Below, piece after piece: positions 4,986-58,000 of a DNA stretch of 64,000 nucleotides. The first letter of the stretch is position 1; every line of letters starts with the position of its first letter. Source of the DNA: a virus (taxonomy: Duplodnaviria; Caudoviricetes); IMG/VR virus record IMGVR_UViG_3300001580_000006, positions 96,001 to 160,000 of that record; one strand, written 5' to 3'. The translations under genes and the position numbers were made by a program. The notes under the pieces are model-generated. The model did not search any database, was not told where the DNA came from, and was given only the letters and a program-made list of their open reading frames with translations.

Positions 4986-7511
4986 TTACTTTAACTCTTC
5001 TTGAATGGCCCCTTCTATGGTAGAATCAGTGGGCATCTTTACTGACCAAGTGCGGTTGCCTATTACTAGTGCTGGTATGTCTCGTACATTGCGCATTAGC
5101 ATATCCGTAAGGATATCTGTAGCCTCGGCATGTTTGTCAATATCAAACTCATGATAATGATATTCATATTTGCCTGGCATTTTCTTTAGTAATGCCTGAA
5201 TACGGCCGTCCGTTGTTTTACATATAGAGCACCCCGGCTTTCCATATAGATGGATTGCTTTGTCGCGCCTTATATTTACATTTACTGGAGACCCAAGACT
5301 GCGGTCATTGTGCTGTTTGCGGTCTTCGCGCTCCTGCTGTTTACCTTTATTCCACTTGTCTGACTCACCATAATACCCAGTAACCCTGGTAATATAGGTA
5401 ACGTTCTCAGACGAGCACTTCTTGCAGGCGTCTAGTTCACCTTTCTCAACTGTACTACAATCATTACATCTAGTAAAGGTTGGGCTAAACACAACCTGAT
5501 CGTTCTGCGATAGATCATATATCTTAGTTATGAAGCTTGCCACTGCCTTAACGTCTGGAGTAGCGTCACCCATCCAAGCGTGTGTAATAGATCCAGCGTC
5601 TATAGCGCCATGGAACTGGCCCTCTAGTAATATCCTATCAACCAAACTGACATTAGCATCAACCGCAATATGCGTCGAGTTAGTATAGTAGACTGAGCCA
5701 GTTTTCACGTCACCCTTTACCAGCTTCTTAGCATCTGGATACTTCTCCAGGTCTAGCTTGGCAAACCTATACGCCGTTGATTCAGCTGGTGTTTGTTCTA
5801 AAGCAATATTCATCTTATGCTCTTTAGAGAGACGCTGACATGCTATATACATGTGAGACACTATCTTTAAGCCAAGTTCAAATGCTTGCTGATCTTCGTG
5901 TAGTTGTTTACCTGTAAGCTCCTGGACAGCTTCGTTTAGCCCAAGTACGCCAATAAGGTATCGTGCTGACCCTAGACCAAAATACGGTGCTCCGTCTTGA
6001 TCGTAGGTAAGTGTAGCTAGAGGACCATGTTCCTTTAGCGCCAATAGTTTATTTATGAATTTCTTTTTCTGAATGTGCGCGTCTACCGCTGTAGCAAAAT
6101 ACTTGTCCAAGCGTTCGGTAAATATCTTTTCCAGCTCTGGGAGGTCATATGACCCAGCTTGTTTGGCTTCTAGCGCAAACCTAGGAAGGTTAAGAGTAAT
6201 ATTCTGTAGGGCCGCAAATCTCATTCTCCACGGTTCGTGTTTGGCTGTCTCTACTTCGTCGTCAGACATGTTGACTCGTAATCTGCAACACTGTGACACG
6301 ACGTTTGTATCTCCTCGCTCAAACACCAAGTACAGGGATCCAGTTTTTGCAACTGCTTCAGATATTAGCTCTAGGTGACCTTCATGGTTATCAGTACGCC
6401 AGAAGTCTTTGGTAATATGGACATTAGCTTTTGGAAAGAAGAACGGCAAGCCATTGGCATCGCCATCTTTATATACCTCAATACACGCTCTTAGGAACCG
6501 CCTGCTTTCAGCAGTATAGTCTCCATATGTAAGAAATCCATCCTTCATGTTGTGCTTAAACATCTGAGCATTCTTTGGAAGATCGCGGACGAACTCTGTA
6601 TGCGACTCACCTAACTTATCTATCCATTTATGAATAAACCTACCACCTGGTCCTAAGGCAAATGTGTCCTTATAGCGAGGCGGTGTTTCATAATAGAAGT
6701 TTAGGTCGGAGAATATCGCTTGGCCTCCCCTAGTTCCAAGAAGCTGCGAGAATGAGAATATCATGTCTTGGGCTGATTGTTTAACAACCTCGTCAGAGAC
6801 GCCTTGTACAAATGGTGCCATGAATATGTTCACAGCATCCCAACCGATAGCCCCAGCAAAGTGACCTTGTAGTAACGAACTAAACTCTTTGATGTGGTTT
6901 ATAAGTACTAATAGGTGCTTGGCCGGCTTCGATGGATTGGGGTATGCTTTAGAAGATAGTCCATAGCGTATCACGTATGCCAGGTTCTGTCCTGAACAAT
7001 ATGGCCTGTCTACCAGCCCAAGATCATGCAGGTGCATATAGCCATCTTTGTGTGCAGTTGCAACTTCCTTACTGAATACCTCTCCAGAATCAAGAGCAAA
7101 CTGCTTCTTTATATTCTCGCCAATATATAAATTTATTGCCTCTGGGTTGTGCGGTACATTCGAGTTCTCTTGGTTGCCACCAGTAATCAAAGCTGATAGG
7201 TCACGGAATGACATAACGGCCAAGCTACCTTTTCTCCACTTTGCGCGCATGCCTCTTGACAAAAGCTCTGCCTGTGTAAGGGTTCTGATCTCTGCTGTAG
7301 TTACTGTTTCTAGCCCAGCATCCACGACTTTCTTTTCTACTGCAGTGGCAATAGAGTCAGCCACCTCTGGTTTTATACCAAGCTCATCAGTTAGCTTTTC
7401 TATAACCCGGGCTTTGTTCCACTCCTCGTGGGTAAAATTTGTAGTTGACCCCACCATTAAATTATTAGCGGTTGGATCATTGGTTGTCTGTCTAACTACC
7501 TTTGGGGACAT
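4986..7511 (-). CDS. nrdD: Anaerobic (class III) ribonucleoside-triphosphate reductase with N-terminal ATP cone and C-terminal glutaredoxin-like domain
   Basis: HLHDL, RPYCSG, SQCCRL, EQTPAES, YYTNSTH, CxxC..CxxC, glycyl-radical motif RVTGYY; tail YGKPGCSICK...IPALVI. Confidence 0.92.
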   Translation of the reverse strand: MSPKVVRQTTNDPTANNLMVGSTTNFTHEEWNKARVIEKLTDELGIKPEVADSIATAVEKKVVDAGLETVTTAEIRTLTQAELLSRGMRAKWRKGSLAVMSFRDLSALITGGNQENSNVPHNPEAINLYIGENIKKQFALDSGEVFSKEVATAHKDGYMHLHDLGLVDRPYCSGQNLAYVIRYGLSSKAYPNPSKPAKHLLVLINHIKEFSSLLQGHFAGAIGWDAVNIFMAPFVQGVSDEVVKQSAQDMIFSFSQLLGTRGGQAIFSDLNFYYETPPRYKDTFALGPGGRFIHKWIDKLGESHTEFVRDLPKNAQMFKHNMKDGFLTYGDYTAESRRFLRACIEVYKDGDANGLPFFFPKANVHITKDFWRTDNHEGHLELISEAVAKTGSLYLVFERGDTNVVSQCCRLRVNMSDDEVETAKHEPWRMRFAALQNITLNLPRFALEAKQAGSYDLPELEKIFTERLDKYFATAVDAHIQKKKFINKLLALKEHGPLATLTYDQDGAPYFGLGSARYLIGVLGLNEAVQELTGKQLHEDQQAFELGLKIVSHMYIACQRLSKEHKMNIALEQTPAESTAYRFAKLDLEKYPDAKKLVKGDVKTGSVYYTNSTHIAVDANVSLVDRILLEGQFHGAIDAGSITHAWMGDATPDVKAVASFITKIYDLSQNDQVVFSPTFTRCNDCSTVEKGELDACKKCSSENVTYITRVTGYYGESDKWNKGKQQEREDRKQHNDRSLGSPVNVNIRRDKAIHLYGKPGCSICKTTDGRIQALLKKMPGKYEYHYHEFDIDKHAEATDILTDMLMRNVRDIPALVIGNRTWSVKMPTDSTIEGAIQEELK

Positions 7512-7558
7512 TTAAATCTCCTTGTTGTCTATTGTTTGTGATTGGGTTTCCCTCCTCG

Positions 7559-7972
7559 TCAGTCGTCCCCTAGATAAACAAAGTACTTAGCAAATAAATC
7601 TAGCCCTTCTTTTTGCAGCTCTCCGCATTTTATCATATCACTTACAGTGTGTGTACAGTTTCTGCTGTTAGATAAGGTCTTACATAGGTTTGCTTCACAA
7701 AGGGTTATTTCAAACGCTAGAGATATCTTATCTATGATCTCTAGCCATTTCTTTGTGGCCAACTCGTCGTCCTTAACTTCATCAAAGATTGCACCTGGAA
7801 TACCAGCATACTTGTTTTGCCCGAGCCTTTTACGGCACTCTTTAAGCCTTGGCAGTACAAACTTTGCAACGGTAATGTCAAGACACCACAACTCATTGTC
7901 CGCAAACCCACGAGTCAGCCTTTGGAAAAACCAGCGGACCTCATATAAAGCCTCTACAATCCAATTAAACAT
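7559..7972 (-). CDS. hypothetical phage protein
   Basis: GAGG RBS; operon context. Confidence 0.6.
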   Translation of the reverse strand: MFNWIVEALYEVRWFFQRLTRGFADNELWCLDITVAKFVLPRLKECRKRLGQNKYAGIPGAIFDEVKDDELATKKWLEIIDKISLAFEITLCEANLCKTLSNSRNCTHTVSDMIKCGELQKEGLDLFAKYFVYLGDD

Positions 7973-7982
7973 ACTACCTCTT

Positions 7983-8669
7983 TTAACAAGTGCAGTTTGG
8001 CTCTACCTGCTCGGGTAGGTATTCTTTGATTCGACCAAAAATAAATGGGTACAGCGTTACAAATTTACGCAGGACTTCATACATTATACTGCGCATAGCT
8101 GGGTGAGCCTCAGGCTGTGCGCGTAGTGAGAATATATGAAACCACTCCCGTATGTTTGCTGTTACAACAATGGTAGACGCTGTACAAGTTGGTAGCACAG
8201 ACCTAGCTATCTCAGGTGGATATCCATTTTTTATCATCTTAAAATATGACTCTTCGGCTGTGCTAACGGCCGACCACCAAGCAGCCTTTGCTGGGTCGCC
8301 GCCGGCTCTCTCATAATCAGTAATGGCTGTTTTAAAAGGACTGATTACTTTTATTTCATTACCAAGACGGTTGGTACTGTAGTTGCAATATCTAGTACTC
8401 TCTTGTGCAAACGCTACGCCGATTCTGTGTCTTACAAGTTCGTGTGTTACTCCACGGTCTACAACAAGACGAGCTGCTATGTGTGCGTGTTCGAACATTG
8501 CTAGGTGCTTACGCTCCCACAGCTTGTCAAACAGCTTTTTATTTGCATCCGGCGCTGACATATCCTCAGTCAAATAGCAGACGCGCGCAGCGTCTACTAT
8601 TGACTTAATGATAGTATCTTCATCAGGAGGATTTATCAACCCAAATGATTGAACTACTAAGTTAGGCAT
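7983..8669 (-). CDS. thyX: FAD-dependent thymidylate synthase
   Basis: H..MFEH, THELVRHR....AQESTRY, ARSVLP, NIREW.H...R....AH. Confidence 0.93.
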   Translation of the reverse strand: MPNLVVQSFGLINPPDEDTIIKSIVDAARVCYLTEDMSAPDANKKLFDKLWERKHLAMFEHAHIAARLVVDRGVTHELVRHRIGVAFAQESTRYCNYSTNRLGNEIKVISPFKTAITDYERAGGDPAKAAWWSAVSTAEESYFKMIKNGYPPEIARSVLPTCTASTIVVTANIREWFHIFSLRAQPEAHPAMRSIMYEVLRKFVTLYPFIFGRIKEYLPEQVEPNCTC

Positions 8670-45504: not shown

Positions 45505-46950
45505 CTATTGCCTACAATCTGAGCTTTCGTATGCTCGTATGTAATCCATTACATGCTCTGACCACCCGTCAATGTGCGTCCACTTGCCATACCCAATCCC
45601 GTTCTTTTCAATAGAGACGTTGATTAGATAGTTTTCGGTAGCCCAAGAGGTGTCAGCGTTGGTTGGATCTCCTTTAGAGCCCTTGGCATCACAATCCTGT
45701 TCGTCAGTGAACACTATAACTCTATCAGCGCTACCTTCCTCTCTTTTGACGTAGTCCATAGCCTGTTTCAGGAATATTCCGCCACCGCCTAGGCTCTGCT
45801 CTGCCTTCTTTACTGCATCTATTAGAGCAAAGCCATAACGCGGAGCAACTAAAGCAGTTTGATGCACCCTAGTGTGGTCGTTGCCGGCAGTACAGTAGAT
45901 CCGTGCATCCACACACCGTTCTCTAGCAATAACAGCTAAAGCAGCAGCAACATCTAGACGATTACGGTCGGATTTGGCTGATATATTGCCGCGCATAGAG
46001 CCGGAAACATCTATGATTAAAACTGTTTTGCCTGGAAGCTTGGAGTATCCATCCAAGTATTTCAACATTGCTTGCTCAATCTTGTTTTCCCACTGCGGGG
46101 CAAACTGAGCAGCTGATATGAACTGGAATGGTAGCACCATGCCGGGCTTCAGCCTATCTAAGGCTTCGAACACTAGCTTCTCGTTAACTCCGTTGTCTTT
46201 GAAGTTACGCAGATTGCGTAGTACAGCCAAAGCTCCCATCTTATTGTTGGATAAAAGACGCTCAAACTCTAGGCGCTTAGCTTCCTTGTCGTTGCCACAG
46301 GCTGATATGGCTACTTCCCAGGTGTCTGGGGTAGCTAAGGTGTTGGCGCGTAGCCTTCCCCAAAGAGTAGCCTGGTCCTCATCAATAGGACGAGGGTGCA
46401 CTAAGCATAGAACATCGCGTAGCTTTATTACCTTGTCATCGCCGCGGTATTTAGCCAACTGATACTCGTCGAAGCGGCGGAACGCACTAGCTAAACCAAC
46501 CTTGAACTGCCAAGGAATCGGCACCCTCTTGCCATATCTGTGATCAGCAGTACGCTTAGGCTTAGCTTGTCTATTTATACCCCAATATATGGCTAATATT
46601 TCTGAGAGCTCGTCTGCTCTTTTAATAATCTCCGGAAGCAGTTGCCCAACCAGCTTCTTATGCTCTGGGTGTCTTAGCATTAGGTTGGCTATAAGCAGCG
46701 GTGCATGACGGATTTTCATATCCAGTCTGGTCTCAATAGCCATATTGAATACGCTATGAGGATCTACTTGGCCTATTAGCTCAGCTATACGCTCGGCTAT
46801 AGACATACCACCCTCATAGAATGAATCTTCCCAAAGCATGCACGCCATTAGTGACCGCCTCAGTTTCTTTTCAGCTGAAATCATGGCGGCATTTGCGCCA
46901 CCAGCTGTATAAACTGGAGGTCTTTTGGCAGTTGTGTTTATTCTCGCCAT
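45505..46950 (-). CDS. Ro60/Rsr TROVE-vWA RNA-binding protein (start at MARINTT, RBS AAGGGAG)
   Basis: LRR...CMLWED.FYE.G, R.APL, RADE, FDEYQLAKY, LRDVL...HP.P, PDTWE, ALAVLRNLRN, vWA DVSGSM and TDEQ. Confidence 0.92.
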   Translation of the reverse strand: MARINTTAKRPPVYTAGGANAAMISAEKKLRRSLMACMLWEDSFYEGGMSIAERIAELIGQVDPHSVFNMAIETRLDMKIRHAPLLIANLMLRHPEHKKLVGQLLPEIIKRADELSEILAIYWGINRQAKPKRTADHRYGKRVPIPWQFKVGLASAFRRFDEYQLAKYRGDDKVIKLRDVLCLVHPRPIDEDQATLWGRLRANTLATPDTWEVAISACGNDKEAKRLEFERLLSNNKMGALAVLRNLRNFKDNGVNEKLVFEALDRLKPGMVLPFQFISAAQFAPQWENKIEQAMLKYLDGYSKLPGKTVLIIDVSGSMRGNISAKSDRNRLDVAAALAVIARERCVDARIYCTAGNDHTRVHQTALVAPRYGFALIDAVKKAEQSLGGGGIFLKQAMDYVKREEGSADRVIVFTDEQDCDAKGSKGDPTNADTSWATENYLINVSIEKNGIGYGKWTHIDGWSEHVMDYIRAYESSDCRQ

Positions 46951-46968
46951 AGTCTTACTCCCTTTTTG

Positions 46969-47468
46969 ACTAGGTAATTTGATTGGCCCCGCCGTACACG
47001 GCTTTACGTGCGACAACAAAAGGCTTAGTATACTATACCTATTGCTGGTTTTGATCAAACTAACCGCGGGTTATTGTTCGGCTTGCCAGATTCTCACTGG
47101 ACGCTCGTCCTTACGGACATTCAATATAGTGTTGCTGCCCCACTATTATCGGCTGTGGGTCACCATCATACAAAGTGCCATTTTGCGACTAAGCACCATG
47201 GCTGGTTGCGCATACAGTCTTTCAGCGCTACGTCATTTGGCGGACATACCAAGCCTAGCCGGTTTTCGGTGGACTGCAATCTTACCTTCCATGGTCTTTG
47301 GTCAACCTCTACCACGCGCAGCGACTTTCAGGTGCTAGGCATCTGTATGGAAGACTGCGTAGACAAACCGGCAAAATTTAACGCTACTCGGCATAGTCGA
47401 ATCGGGCAGTACTGCGGTTTCCCGCGTGCTCTGATTAAGGGCGAAGTAACCCAACTCTTCACCTGAGT
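46969..47468 (-). ncRNA. putative ~500-nt structured RNA starting with a Y-RNA-type 5' motif
   Basis: 5' CAGGUGAAGAGUUGGGUUACUUCG; no credible ORF on the transcribed strand; many local hairpins; abuts the Ro60 RBS. Confidence 0.55.
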
Positions 47469-47480
47469 AGCTTTTCTAAC

Positions 47481-47550
47481 TTGCCCGGAATAAGCGACTT
47501 GAGTATATTATCGTTTACAGTCGAAGTAACCCAAGCCTACACCAGGGCAA
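47481..47550 (-). ncRNA. minimal Y RNA (Ro60-binding helix, no tRNA-like domain)
   Basis: UUGCCCUGG-UGUAG-GCUUGGGU-UACUUCG...ACUCAAGU-CGCUUAUU-CCGGGCAA; the ends pair; lies between the promoter and the Ro60 gene. Confidence 0.75.
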
Positions 47551-47571
47551 TTTCTTTACTAGAATCAGCAT

Positions 47572-47600
47572 ATTGTAGCACAGAATCAATTAAAAGTCAA
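47572..47600 (-). promoter_or_regulatory. promoter of the Y-RNA/Ro60 unit
   Basis: TTGACT-17 nt-TACAAT with TG extension. Confidence 0.75.
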
Positions 47601-48448
47601 GTACTTTTTAACTCTGACCACAATAAATCTGATATCAGATCGTTTACATAATCTCTATCGTTATTATCAGGTAGCTGTGACTTGCTTGCAGCAGTGTTGA
47701 ACAGTTTCTTTTCGTGCTCAGCCATCTTTAATACTGACTTGAGGCTAAACTGTCCTTGCTTTATAGCTAACAACTCTTCTCTATCGATAGTGCGATAGTT
47801 TGTCATGTTCCCAGTGTCCAACAGCTCTCGTCCTAACCGATAGATGCGAATGAGGTGGGCTGCGTTCTTAGTGTCATACCCAAACTTATCAACTAAGGCT
47901 TTCCGCTTCTCACCCATGTATCCAAGGTATTTGTTGACTGCCTTAGTCTCTTTGTTTAGGTTGAAGTATGCAAAGGCACGACTATACCACTTCGGCTTTA
48001 CTAGATCAGGGTGTGATCTCATCATCTTGTCGAACTGCCCTTTTGCGTAGCCACCAAATGCGTCGCGCACTCTCGTTCGTGACAGAAATGCCTGCCTATT
48101 CTTTATGAGTTCAGACGATATGCACGACACAGTGGTTCTAAACTTTGCATCCAACCACAACCAGCCCAATACGTTAGGGTTGCAGCCTAGGAGAAGAGAT
48201 ACCGCCTTGCGTAATTCATAGCCTACACAGTCTACTAACACCCCACTCTCCATACGCATATAGTCAAAACCATCGTCTGACCTGTTGTAGCCGTCGAGGT
48301 TTAGATAGTAGTGACGGTCACGTATGTACACCTGGAAAATATCGTGATCATCTACTCCAACCTTATGCTCTGGAGGGATATATAAATTGTGGGCCTCTGA
48401 TCCGCGCAGGCCAGCGTATACTATCTTCCTTGTTTCTGCTTTAGGCAT
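47597..48448 (-). CDS. Pol-beta superfamily nucleotidyltransferase (RlaP/YcgL-like, RNA-repair associated)
   Basis: RGS.AH.L....DD.D, NPNVL..L, F.GYA..Q, GYDTK.A.H..R, L..IK.G. Confidence 0.85.
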   Translation of the reverse strand: MPKAETRKIVYAGLRGSEAHNLYIPPEHKVGVDDHDIFQVYIRDRHYYLNLDGYNRSDDGFDYMRMESGVLVDCVGYELRKAVSLLLGCNPNVLGWLWLDAKFRTTVSCISSELIKNRQAFLSRTRVRDAFGGYAKGQFDKMMRSHPDLVKPKWYSRAFAYFNLNKETKAVNKYLGYMGEKRKALVDKFGYDTKNAAHLIRIYRLGRELLDTGNMTNYRTIDREELLAIKQGQFSLKSVLKMAEHEKKLFNTAASKSQLPDNNDRDYVNDLISDLLWSELKST

Positions 48449-57508: not shown

Positions 57509-57639
57509 TGGTAGGGGAGCCAGGGGTCGAACCTGGAACCTCACGCTCCTAATGCGAAGTAACCCTAATCTACACTAGGCATAAGCCAGAATTAGCGACT
57601 AAGGCAACGGATGCGCTCTGCCAATTGAGCTACTCCCCT
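57509..57639 (-). ncRNA. tRNA/Y-RNA chimera 1: 76-nt tRNA body plus 55-nt Y-type insert (57556..57610)
   Basis: AGGGGAG/CTCCCCT-ACCA, intact D and T arms; insert contains AGUGUAGAUUAGGGUUACUUC paired with CCUUAGUCGCUAAUU. Confidence 0.8.
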
Positions 57640-57866
57640 ACATTTAAGTTTTCCTTATGTGCTTTATTGATGTACCACAATGTGGACAGTGCTGTATTCT
57701 ATAAAACTTACCAACTGTTGGTGTTATAAAAAAGTTTAGGTCATGGTCTGTCCACGGTGTGGTAATTACTCTCTGTAGCAGTATGTCCTCTGCCATATCC
57801 TTACAGCAGAACTCTATTGCAGAGACGTTCCATTTTTCTTTATAGTGTACTGTCATAACTTCCTTT

Positions 57867-58000
57867 TGGTGGGGGAGGACCGATTTGAACGGCCAACCTA
57901 CGGATTAATAGTCGAAGGATTCCTAGTCTTCACCAGGCTTACGCCGGGACCGGCGACTAGGCCTTTGTTTCGTTGCTCTAGCCAGTTGAGCTACTCCCCC
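57867..58000 (-). ncRNA. tRNA/Y-RNA chimera 2: 77-nt tRNA-Asn-like body plus 57-nt Y-type insert (57914..57970)
   Basis: GGGGGAG/CTCCCCC-ACCA, intact D and T arms; insert contains GGUGAAGACUAGGAAUCCUUC paired with CCUAGUCGC. Confidence 0.8.

What the first reader, a model, noticed from the sequence alone, without database searches (positions are those of the whole stretch)
46969..47468. Possible giant Y RNA or new large structured ncRNA
Seen: about 500 nt with no credible sense ORF in an otherwise gene-dense genome. It begins ACUCAGGUGAAGAGUUGGGUUACUUCG. The far end (CCAAUC..ACCUAGU, 46969..46986) can pair imperfectly with that start, which would close a Y-type helix around a ~440-nt domain. 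That domain has GNRA-type hairpins such as GCGG-GAAA-CCGC and GUCC-GUAA-GGAC, and a long-range AGCCGGUUU complement (plus-strand agccggttt near 47257 and aaaccggc near 47365). Inference: an unusually large Ro60-tethered RNA domain, possibly a ribozyme or scaffold. I cannot assign it to GOLLD, ROOL or group I intron families by eye.
Basis: partly seen in the sequence, partly recalled or inferred. Interest (0 to 1): 0.75.

Follow-up and report, generated by a model that had tools for sequence, protein, structure and literature searches.

The report
Two small phage Y RNAs, long leader
The proposed 500-base "giant Y RNA" is really an ordinary 91-base phage Y RNA (the second of two in tandem) followed by about 430 bases of non-coding leader before the Ro60 gene, and I found no evidence that this leader is a structured RNA.

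Summary
The window is part of a 223-kb jumbo-phage record. The 646-base gap (46951-47596, genes on the minus strand) lies between an RlaP-type nucleotidyltransferase gene and a Ro60/TROVE gene.

The gap holds four things:
- A phage sigma-70-type promoter at 47600-47572.
- Y RNA 1 at 47551-47478.
- Y RNA 2 at 47471-47381.
- About 430 nt of ORF-free leader at 47380-46951.

Evidence on the Y RNAs:
- A covariance model built from relatives' Y RNAs has 14 of 15 pairs with compensatory changes.
- It matches both units end to end (64.7 and 28.4 bits).
- Y RNA 2 therefore closes locally.

- It is about 9.5 kcal/mol weaker as a duplex than the local closure.
- 3.9% of random windows pair with the 5' strand at least as well.
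- It lacks the family's conserved 3' motif.

Evidence on the leader:
- No Rfam match even at E 10.
- No similarity in about 50 related Ro60 loci or elsewhere in its own genome.
- No excess folding stability (z -1.0, 0.0 and -2.0, against -4.0 and -3.5 for the Y RNAs).
- No sequence variants in seven other contigs, so covariation cannot be tested.

Verdict: these are new members of a known kind (phage Y RNAs upstream of Ro60). The giant Y RNA is not supported, and the leader remains unexplained. Other first-stage notes on this same genome had already proposed the tandem small Y RNAs.

The parts
47572..47600 (-). Sigma-70-type promoter TTGACT-17-TACAAT with an extended -10 TG. The inferred transcription start is near 47565.
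   Evidence: The scan gives 10 of 12 matches plus the TG. The same extended motif TTGACTTTT...TGnTAnAAT recurs at least six more times in the phage genome, including nearly the same letters at window 2783-2755 and at 58255-58227.
47478..47551 (-). Y RNA 1, a minimal YrlB-like unit. It has an outer stem, the GGUGUAG / CGCUUAUUCC internal loop, a 9-bp inner stem and a small A-rich loop.
   Evidence: It was itself one of the 17 sequences used to build model R1, so its R1 match (64.7 bits, E 1e-15, full length) is by construction. Independent support: folding z -3.48, 0 of 200 shuffles, and a 3' motif score of 13.75 bits on a matrix built without it.
47381..47471 (-). Y RNA 2. It has an outer stem GCUACUC/GAGUAGC, the handle GGUGAAG / CGACUAUGCC and the inner stem GAGUUGGGU/GCCCGAUUC. 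Its loop carries two small hairpins, one capped by GAAA.
   Evidence: It matches model R1 at 28.4 bits, E 1e-5, over model positions 1-70 with no non-standard pair. It was not used to build the model. Folding z is -3.98, 0 of 200 shuffles. An inverted repeat 47380-47389 / 47465-47474 is found. GNRA-capped loop hairpins recur in 5 other units of relatives.
46951..47380 (-). ORF-free leader between Y RNA 2 and the Ro60 start codon. Its nature is unknown and it is probably the 5' UTR or spacer of the Ro60 message.
   Evidence: No Rfam match at E up to 10. No nhmmer or blastn similarity in L001-L039, L047-L052 or its own genome. Sub-segment folding z is -0.98, +0.05 and -2.01. Codon scores are negative.
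46969..46986 (-). I judge it a chance complement.
   Evidence: The duplex is -21.1 kcal/mol, and 3.9% of background windows are as good. The 3'-motif score is -8 to -12 bits. It is not reported as an inverted repeat.
46958..46963 (-). Shine-Dalgarno AGGGAG, 7 nt before the Ro60 ATG.
   Evidence: Read from the sequence. The start codon agrees with alignment of relatives from residue 1-3 and with public gene calls.
45505..46950 (-). Ro60 (TROVE plus vWA) gene, 481 aa.
   Evidence: Pfam TROVE E 2.5e-12, with vWA_Ro60 and VWA_2 below their cut-offs. It is 40-43% identical to Ro60 of Brevundimonas, Caulobacter, Xanthomonas and crAss-like phages.
47597..48448 (-). RlaP-family nucleotidyltransferase gene, immediately upstream of the promoter.
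   Evidence: Pfam PF10127 RlaP, E 3.2e-18.

Best explanation
The stretch is the front of a phage Ro60 transcription unit, not one large RNA.

Arrangement (shown by sequence and models):
- One strong phage promoter at 47600-47572.
- Y RNA 1 (74 nt), then Y RNA 2 (91 nt).
- A roughly 430-nt non-coding leader, then the Ro60 gene.

The Y RNA handle (shown by covariation in relatives):
- Each Y RNA is a hairpin whose 5' and 3' ends pair.
- Two covarying helices flank a conserved internal loop, GGUG(A/U)AG opposite CGNYU(A/G)U(U/G)CC. This is the phage version of the published GNCGAA(N)G Ro60-binding motif.

Inferred by analogy:
- Host nucleases cut the two Y RNAs out of the precursor, as in Mycobacterium smegmatis.
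- Phage Ro60 binds the handle.
- The loop (a small A-rich loop in Y1; two short hairpins, one GAAA-capped, in Y2) recruits a partner such as host PNPase.

The 430-nt leader is most likely a lightly structured spacer that becomes the Ro60 5' UTR. A weak internal promoter-like site (TTGATC, 15 nt, TATAGT, about 47058-47032) could also give Ro60 its own shorter message.

The confidence given applies to the anatomy (two small, locally closed Y RNAs plus a separate leader). That the leader is only a spacer or UTR I hold at about 0.6.
For: - Family structure: 17 small units from 13 loci give 92% paired cells and 14 of 15 pairs with changes on both sides. 0 of 500 shuffles reach this, and slid controls give 38-49% paired.
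- Model R1 matches both window units full length. It finds 99 units next to Ro60 in 39 related loci and more in L047-L052.
- In almost all relatives the units are 50-140 nt.
- Local against distal closure: duplex -30.6 against -21.1 kcal/mol, whole-stretch fold -164.0 against -157.4 kcal/mol. The 3' motif scores +5.9 against -8 to -12 bits.
- Folding z is -4.0 and -3.5 for the units, against -1.0, 0.0 and -2.0 for thirds of the leader.
- The promoter motif is shared with at least six other sites in the genome, and no such motif lies inside the leader.
[quoted passage not shown] Two Y-like RNAs lie upstream of the phage phiLo Ro60 gene and form a complex with host PNPase (PMC12135203).
Against: - No transcript data could be obtained, so the promoter, co-transcription, processing and RNA ends are all inferred.
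- A 430-nt leader is unusual. In most relatives the last Y RNA ends 10-130 nt before the Ro60 start.
- The leader is somewhat G+C-richer (0.50-0.52) than its flanks (0.36-0.47).
- Its plus strand is oddly poor in stop codons.
- Weak thermodynamic z-scores do not exclude a functional fold.
- The Y RNA handle has U where the published motif has C (GGUGAAG against GNCGAAG), although relatives carry both forms.
Confidence: 0.8

Rival explanations
1. The leader (46951-47380) is an independent, lineage-specific structured non-coding RNA or regulatory element, co-transcribed with the Y RNAs. It could be, for example, a Ro60 substrate mimic, a regulator of Ro60 translation, or a scaffold.
For: - 430 nt without coding signal sit in a gene-dense phage.
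- G+C is slightly raised.
- The minus strand folds a little better than the plus strand (z -1.66 against -0.89 for 516 nt). The 3' third has z -2.0.
- Other Ro60 loci also hold unexplained ORF-free stretches beside their Y arrays: L047:1939-2500, L049:2635-3500, L039:2602-2875.
- Relatives place RNase P RNA, tmRNA and tRNAs in the same arrays.
Against: - No Rfam family matches at E up to 10.
- No similarity to any of the other unexplained stretches, or among them.
- No paralogue in the genome.
- Folding energies are within the shuffle distribution for most of it.
- Nothing can be tested by covariation, because all eight copies are identical in this region.
Confidence: 0.15
2. One reading: one giant Y RNA of about 500 nt, whose 5' strand (47468-47451) pairs with 46986-46969 and encloses a roughly 440-nt effector domain.
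For: - About 15 imperfect pairs can be drawn between the two strands.
- Enlarged Y RNAs do exist in relatives. L018:4650-4886 is a 230-nt unit whose canonical handle closes a roughly 175-nt branched insert.
Against: - The local closure fits the covariance model end to end and is 9.5 kcal/mol better as a duplex.
- The distal strand lacks the conserved 3' motif.
- 3.9% of random windows pair as well.
- The enclosed sequence shows no excess stability.
Confidence: 0.03
3. The leader is the decayed remnant of something that once stood there, such as tRNA or Y RNA genes or a small protein gene. These fill the same position in relatives. It now has no function beyond spacing.
For: - In relatives the space before Ro60 holds further Y RNAs, tRNAs (L018, L048, L049) or small genes (L037:2253-2974).
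- The leader has no recognisable feature of its own.
Against: - No residual tRNA or Y RNA signal, even with filters off and E up to 10.
- No tblastn trace of any ORF from the related loci.
Confidence: 0.1
4. A protein gene, possibly frameshifted, lies on the plus strand (ORFs 46979-47338 and 47074-47466).
For: - The plus strand has open runs of 145 and 122 codons. The longest is reached in 0.5% of dinucleotide shuffles and the second-longest in 0 of 4000.
- A weak promoter-like site lies at 46925-46953 on the plus strand.
Against: - Codon-usage scores are -0.24 and -0.13.
- There is no third-position G+C periodicity.
- The translations are Cys-, His- and Trp-rich.
- No Pfam, PHROG or phage tblastn match.
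- It would run antisense through the conserved Y RNA 2.
- Gene callers did not call a complete gene there.
Confidence: 0.03

Closest known systems
Bacterial and phage Y RNAs of the YrlB / minimal type (Chen et al. 2014, PMC4201824)
   Same: The 5' and 3' ends pair into a long stem. There is a conserved Ro60-binding motif near the 5' end (GNCGAAN0-1G; here GGUGAAG and GGUGUAG). The genes are on the same strand within 4 kb of Ro60. Several Y RNAs occur per locus. They lie upstream of Ro60 in one precursor, as in M. smegmatis.
   Different: U replaces C in the motif. Y RNA 2 carries a GAAA-capped hairpin module instead of either a plain loop or a tRNA-like domain. Binding and processing are not shown here.
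YrlA (Rfam RF02553), the tRNA-like Y RNA
   Same: It has the same handle. Many relatives' units (20 of 59 sampled) carry the T-arm-like GGUUCGAAUCC element. Y RNA 2 aligns with the start of such units (UACUUCGCC..UAA..).
   Different: Y RNA 2 has no T arm, D arm or acceptor-like stem. RF02553 does not match it. In this phage, tRNA-shaped RNAs with a Y handle lie elsewhere (57513-58000).
Yrl1 and Yrl2 of Thermus phage phiLo (PMC12135203)
   Same: Two Y-like RNAs lie directly upstream of a phage Ro60 gene. In that study they were shown to bind phage Ro60 and host PNPase.
   Different: I did not compare the sequences. phiLo has no long leader reported in the passages I read.
L018:4650-4886, an enlarged 230-nt Y RNA in an IMG/VR phage contig
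   Different: Its handle has both conserved strands and a perfect inner stem, and its fold has z -2.7. The window's distal strand has neither.
Large ornate RNAs and other RNAs found in phage RNA-gene arrays (GOLLD, ROOL, RNase P RNA, tmRNA, group I introns)
   Same: Comparable size (about 400 nt) and a phage setting next to RNA genes. Relatives do carry RNase P RNA (L018) and a permuted tmRNA (L032) beside their Y RNAs.
   Different: No Rfam 15 family matches the leader even at E 10 on a 435-nt search. ARAGORN finds no tmRNA.

Membership tests
Y RNA (Ro60-binding, YrlB-like minimal type) | A long stem formed by pairing of the 5' and 3' ends, interrupted by a conserved internal loop | tested here: met
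   Model R1 aligns 47551-47478 and 47471-47381 over all 70 positions with all 15 pairs standard. The structure is supported by covariation in relatives.
Y RNA (Ro60-binding, YrlB-like minimal type) | The conserved 5' motif GNCGAAN0-1G (Chen et al. 2014) | tested here: met
   The window has GGUGUAG (unit 1) and GGUGAAG (unit 2). Relatives have GGCGAAG, GGUGAAG and GGCGUAG at the same column. This is a variant with U for C, so the feature is met in the family's own phage form.
Y RNA (Ro60-binding, YrlB-like minimal type) | Encoded within about 4 kb of a Ro60/TROVE gene on the same strand | tested here: met
   The units end 431 and 528 nt upstream of the Ro60 start codon on the minus strand.
Y RNA (Ro60-binding, YrlB-like minimal type) | Physical binding to Ro60 and existence as a discrete stable small RNA | not testable with these tools
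YrlA (RF02553) | A tRNA-like domain with T arm, D arm and acceptor-like stem | tested here: not met
   No RF02553 or tRNA match in 46800-47700 at E up to 10. RF02553 hits in the genome lie elsewhere and fall below the cut-off. The loop of unit 2 holds only two short hairpins.
   Duplex energy is -21.1 against -30.6 kcal/mol, and 3.9% of random windows are as good. The 3' motif scores -8 to -12 bits against +5.9. The constrained fold is 6.6 kcal/mol worse.
Known large structured RNAs in Rfam 15 (GOLLD, ROOL, OLE, HEARO, raiA, RNase P, tmRNA, group I and II introns, 6S, riboswitches, self-cleaving ribozymes) | A match to the family covariance model | tested here: not met
   No match at the gathering score in the window. 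No match at E up to 10 in 901-nt and 435-nt searches.
Conserved structured RNA (any new family) | Homologues with covarying base pairs | tested here: inconclusive
   No homologue was found. The seven other contigs of this phage are identical across whatever part of the gap each reaches (three of them all 430 nt of the leader, the others 182-395 nt), and L061 has a single SNP, in the Ro60 coding region. The nearest Ro60 is only 56% identical.

The most novel reading that the evidence does not exclude
The 430-nt leader (46951-47380) is a lineage-specific functional RNA that is co-transcribed with the Y RNAs. It could be a Ro60 client or decoy, or a regulator of Ro60 synthesis. The unexplained ORF-free stretches beside Y RNA arrays in other phages (L047, L049, L039) would then be its fast-evolving functional counterparts.
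Probability: 0.12. Interest if true: 0.6.

Novelty: new member of a known kind. Interest (0 to 1): 0.22.

Why it matters
- It removes a tempting false lead (a 500-nt Ro60-tethered ribozyme or scaffold) and replaces it with an exact annotation: promoter, two Y RNAs, leader and Ro60.
- The Y RNA handle defined here comes with a covariance-supported model. That model finds about 100 units in about 45 phage Ro60 loci, and it shows that these phages swap loop modules on a constant handle: a plain loop, a tRNA-like domain, a GNRA hairpin, or a roughly 175-nt insert.
- The model could be useful for annotating phage Y RNAs that Rfam's YrlA model misses.
- The leader is the only open point. If it proved functional, it would be a new RNA partner or regulator in the Ro60 system.

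Tried and rejected
- Rfam 15: gathering score on the whole window, then E up to 10 on 901 nt, on the 3.6-kb locus and on 435 nt. Only two tRNAs elsewhere and noise.
- ARAGORN: no tRNA or tmRNA in the stretch.
- blastn of the 646 nt against 50,697 phage records: no match.
- nhmmer and blastn of the leader against L001-L039, L047-L052 and its own 223-kb genome: only the Y handles match.
- All-against-all comparison of unexplained gaps in related loci: none is like the window's.
- Nearer relatives sought through Ro60: the best is 56% identical among 5.8 billion proteins. Contigs with the same or a 1-residue-different Ro60 are identical in the leader.
- Pseudogene test: tblastn of 1,763 ORFs from related loci against the gap gave noise only.
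- Coding tests of the plus-strand ORFs were negative.
- RNase P, tmRNA and group I features considered by eye (for example GAAAGUC, and ACAAUAACCCGCGGUUA resembling the P4 3' strand) were dropped, because no covariance model gives even a weak hit.
- Rfam YrlA searched over the phage genome gave only sub-threshold, mostly tRNA-like hits outside the stretch. Model R1 finds no further units in the genome stretches around those hits (L053-L059, about 18.5 kb).

Full report
**Setting.** The window is bases 96001-160000 of a 223-kb virus record that is 94% complete. Around the finding all genes lie on the minus strand.
- 47597-48448 encodes an RlaP-family nucleotidyltransferase (PF10127, E 3e-18).
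- 45505-46950 encodes a 481-aa Ro60 (TROVE, E 2.5e-12, with a vWA domain).
- This Ro60 is about 40-43% identical to Ro60 of Brevundimonas, Caulobacter, Xanthomonas and crAss-like phages.
- The gap between the two genes is 646 nt (46951-47596). The finding covers its downstream 500 nt.

**Checking the observation.**
- The stretch is non-coding. Its ORFs score -0.12 to -0.41 on a codon-usage log-odds trained on 75 long ORFs of this genome. True coding chunks average +0.27 with a 5th percentile of +0.12.
- These ORFs have no Pfam, PHROG or phage tblastn match.
- Public gene calls leave the gap empty.
- Whether the quoted pairings exceed chance is treated below.

**What the 5' end is.** Fetching 39 IMG/VR loci that encode relatives of this Ro60 (38-51% identity) showed a repeated element. 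Upstream of, and sometimes downstream of, Ro60 lie one to eight tandem copies of a small unit marked by GGUUACUUC.
- Seventeen of the smallest units align to a common design. The order is: outer stem, a bulged U, GG, the motif GGUG(A/U)AG, a 9-bp inner stem ending in GGU, UACUUC, a short loop, the return of the inner stem, CGNUUGUUCC, and the return of the outer stem.
- On that alignment 92% of cells are paired and 14 of 15 pairs show changes on both sides. The covariation score is 0.74, against 0.19 in shuffles (0 of 500) and 0.11-0.16 when partners are slid by 1-3 columns.
- This is the phage form of the bacterial Y RNA handle. Chen et al. 2014 describe the motif GNCGAAN0-1G near the 5' end of YrlA and YrlB, overlapping the Ro60-binding site, in RNAs within 4 kb of Ro60 on the same strand in 254 bacteria and 22 phages (PMC4201824).
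- Two Y-like RNAs upstream of the Ro60 gene of Thermus phage phiLo bind that Ro60 and host PNPase (PMC12135203).

**Two Y RNAs in the window.** I built covariance model R1 from these units and searched the whole window with filters off. It gives exactly two significant matches, both full length.
- 47551-47478 scores 64.7 bits. This unit was in the training set.
- 47471-47381 scores 28.4 bits (E 1e-5). This unit was not in the training set.
The pairings are GCUACUC (47471-47465) with GAGUAGC (47389-47383), the handle GGUGAAG opposite CGACUAUGCC (47399-47390), and GAGUUGGGU with GCCCGAUUC. No pair is non-standard.
- The repeat finder independently reports the two 5' strands as a 44-nt direct repeat 80 nt apart, and the outer stem of unit 2 as an inverted repeat.
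- Folded alone, the two units have z-scores of -3.5 and -4.0, with 0 of 200 shuffles as stable.
- The loop of unit 2 holds two short hairpins.
- In a regex sample of 59 units from non-redundant loci, 21 have a plain loop, 20 have a T-arm-like element (YrlA type), 6 have a GNRA-capped hairpin (including this one) and 12 have something else. The GNRA hairpin is therefore a recurrent loop module of this family, not part of a large domain.

**Local against distal closure.**

| Test | Local closure | Distal closure |
|---|---|---|
| Duplex energy with the 5' strand | -30.6 kcal/mol | -21.1 kcal/mol |
| Share of 6,397 windows of the same strand that pair as well | 0.05% | 3.9% (about two expected per 500 nt) |
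| Fold of the whole stretch | -164.0 kcal/mol (unconstrained; chooses local) | -157.4 kcal/mol (distal pairs enforced) |
| Score on the relatives' 3' motif matrix | +5.9 bits (top 0.08% of positions) | -8 to -12 bits |

About 1.4 such pairs are expected in 430 nt.
- Enlarged Y RNAs do exist. L018:4650-4886 has a perfect handle closing a roughly 175-nt branched insert, with z -2.7. The window shows none of the features that make that case convincing.

**The promoter.**
- TTGACT-17-TACAAT with an extended -10 TG lies at 47600-47572.
- It belongs to a motif (TTGACTTTT...TGnTAnAAT) found at least six more times in the phage genome, twice with nearly the same letters.
- No such site lies inside the leader.
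- I therefore infer one primary transcript that starts near 47565 and carries Y1, Y2, the leader and Ro60. The Y RNAs would be cut out as in M. smegmatis, where YrlA and YrlB lie upstream of rsr and come from a single precursor.
- A weak sigma-70-like site (TTGATC, 15 nt, TATAGT, about 47058-47032, my reading) might add a shorter Ro60 message. This is speculative.

**The remaining 430 nt (47380-46951).**
- Nothing in Rfam 15 matches, even at E 10 on a 435-nt search.
- ARAGORN finds nothing there.
- The leader has no similarity in the phage collection, in 39 plus 6 related Ro60 loci, or in its own genome.
- It shows no trace of ORFs seen in related loci.
- Folding energies are ordinary: z -1.3 for 416 nt, -1.0, 0.0 and -2.0 for its thirds, and no 120-nt window beyond -2.1.
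- Covariation cannot be tested. The nearest other Ro60 among 5.8 billion proteins is 56% identical. The seven other contigs of this phage reach 182 to 646 nt into the gap and are identical to the window over that length, and the only variant (L061) has one SNP, in the Ro60 coding region.
- In relatives, the space around the Y arrays holds tRNAs, an RNase P RNA (L018), a permuted tmRNA (L032), small genes (L037), or other unexplained stretches (L047, L049, L039). The unexplained stretches resemble neither the window's leader nor each other.

**Points against a plain spacer.**
- The leader is unusually long. In most relatives the last Y RNA ends 10-130 nt before Ro60.
- It is slightly G+C-richer than its flanks.
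- Its plus strand has open runs of 145 and 122 codons, which are rare in shuffles (0.5%, and 0 of 4000). However, there is no codon bias, no third-position periodicity and no homologue. I leave this unexplained.

**Verdict.**
- The stretch starts with a true Y RNA, but that Y RNA is 91 nt long and ordinary for its family.
- The giant Y RNA is not supported (about 3%).
- The leader is most likely the Ro60 5' UTR or spacer. I give about 12-15% to it being a lineage-specific functional RNA.
- Novelty: new members of a known kind.
- Other first-stage notes on this same genome (e1-5664079, e1-5664066) had already read the tandem small Y RNAs and the transcription unit, and my tests agree with them.

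Noticed in passing
window 57513-57640 and about 57905-58000 (minus strand): Two tRNA-shaped RNAs with a 7-bp acceptor stem, D and T arms and an encoded CCA. Their anticodon arm is replaced by a loop-closed Y RNA handle (in the 57513-57640 copy: AGUCGCUAAUUCUGGC, UUAU, GCCUAGUGUAGAUUAGGGUUACUUCG). They are circularly permuted relative to YrlA and sit behind a copy of the same phage promoter (58255-58227). R1 gives only 9.1 bits because of the permutation.
   Followed up: partly
L018:47-368 (IMG/VR contig 3300020583_000158; also L038): A bacterial class-A RNase P RNA match (RF00010, 148.8 bits). It stands at the head of a 21-tRNA array interleaved with Y RNAs in front of a Ro60 gene, on a contig classed as viral.
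   Followed up: no
L032:1353-1739: A permuted tmRNA (RF04321, 130 bits; ARAGORN tmRNA*) lies directly beside Y RNA units upstream of a phage Ro60 gene.
   Followed up: no
L018:4650-4886: A 230-nt Y RNA. Its canonical handle (outer stem UCAUUA/UAAUGA, GGCGUAG opposite CGCCUGUUCC) closes a roughly 175-nt branched insert, with z -2.7. It lies downstream of Ro60.
   Followed up: partly
window 46951-47596, plus strand: Stop codons are depleted in two frames, giving open runs of 145 and 122 codons (0.5% and 0 of 4000 shuffles). There is no coding signature of any other kind.
   Followed up: partly
L047:1939-2500; L049:2635-3500; L039:2602-2875: ORF-free stretches of 270-870 nt lie beside Y RNA arrays in other Ro60 loci. 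They are not alike among themselves, and none matches Rfam at the gathering score; only L049 was also searched at E up to 5.
   Followed up: partly
L051:2488-3228 and 7342-8386: A 401-kb contig with Ro60 53% identical has a 246-aa reverse transcriptase (RVT_1) gene directly upstream of its Y RNA and Ro60. Prok-E2 and Prok-JAB genes lie downstream, echoing the E2/JAB/E1/Ubl operon noted downstream of Ro60 in this window.
   Followed up: no
genome-wide (for example window 2783-2755, 2856-2884, 34313-34284, 58255-58227): A shared phage promoter motif TTGACTTTT(A/T)...TGnTAnAAT occurs at seven or more sites.
   Followed up: partly
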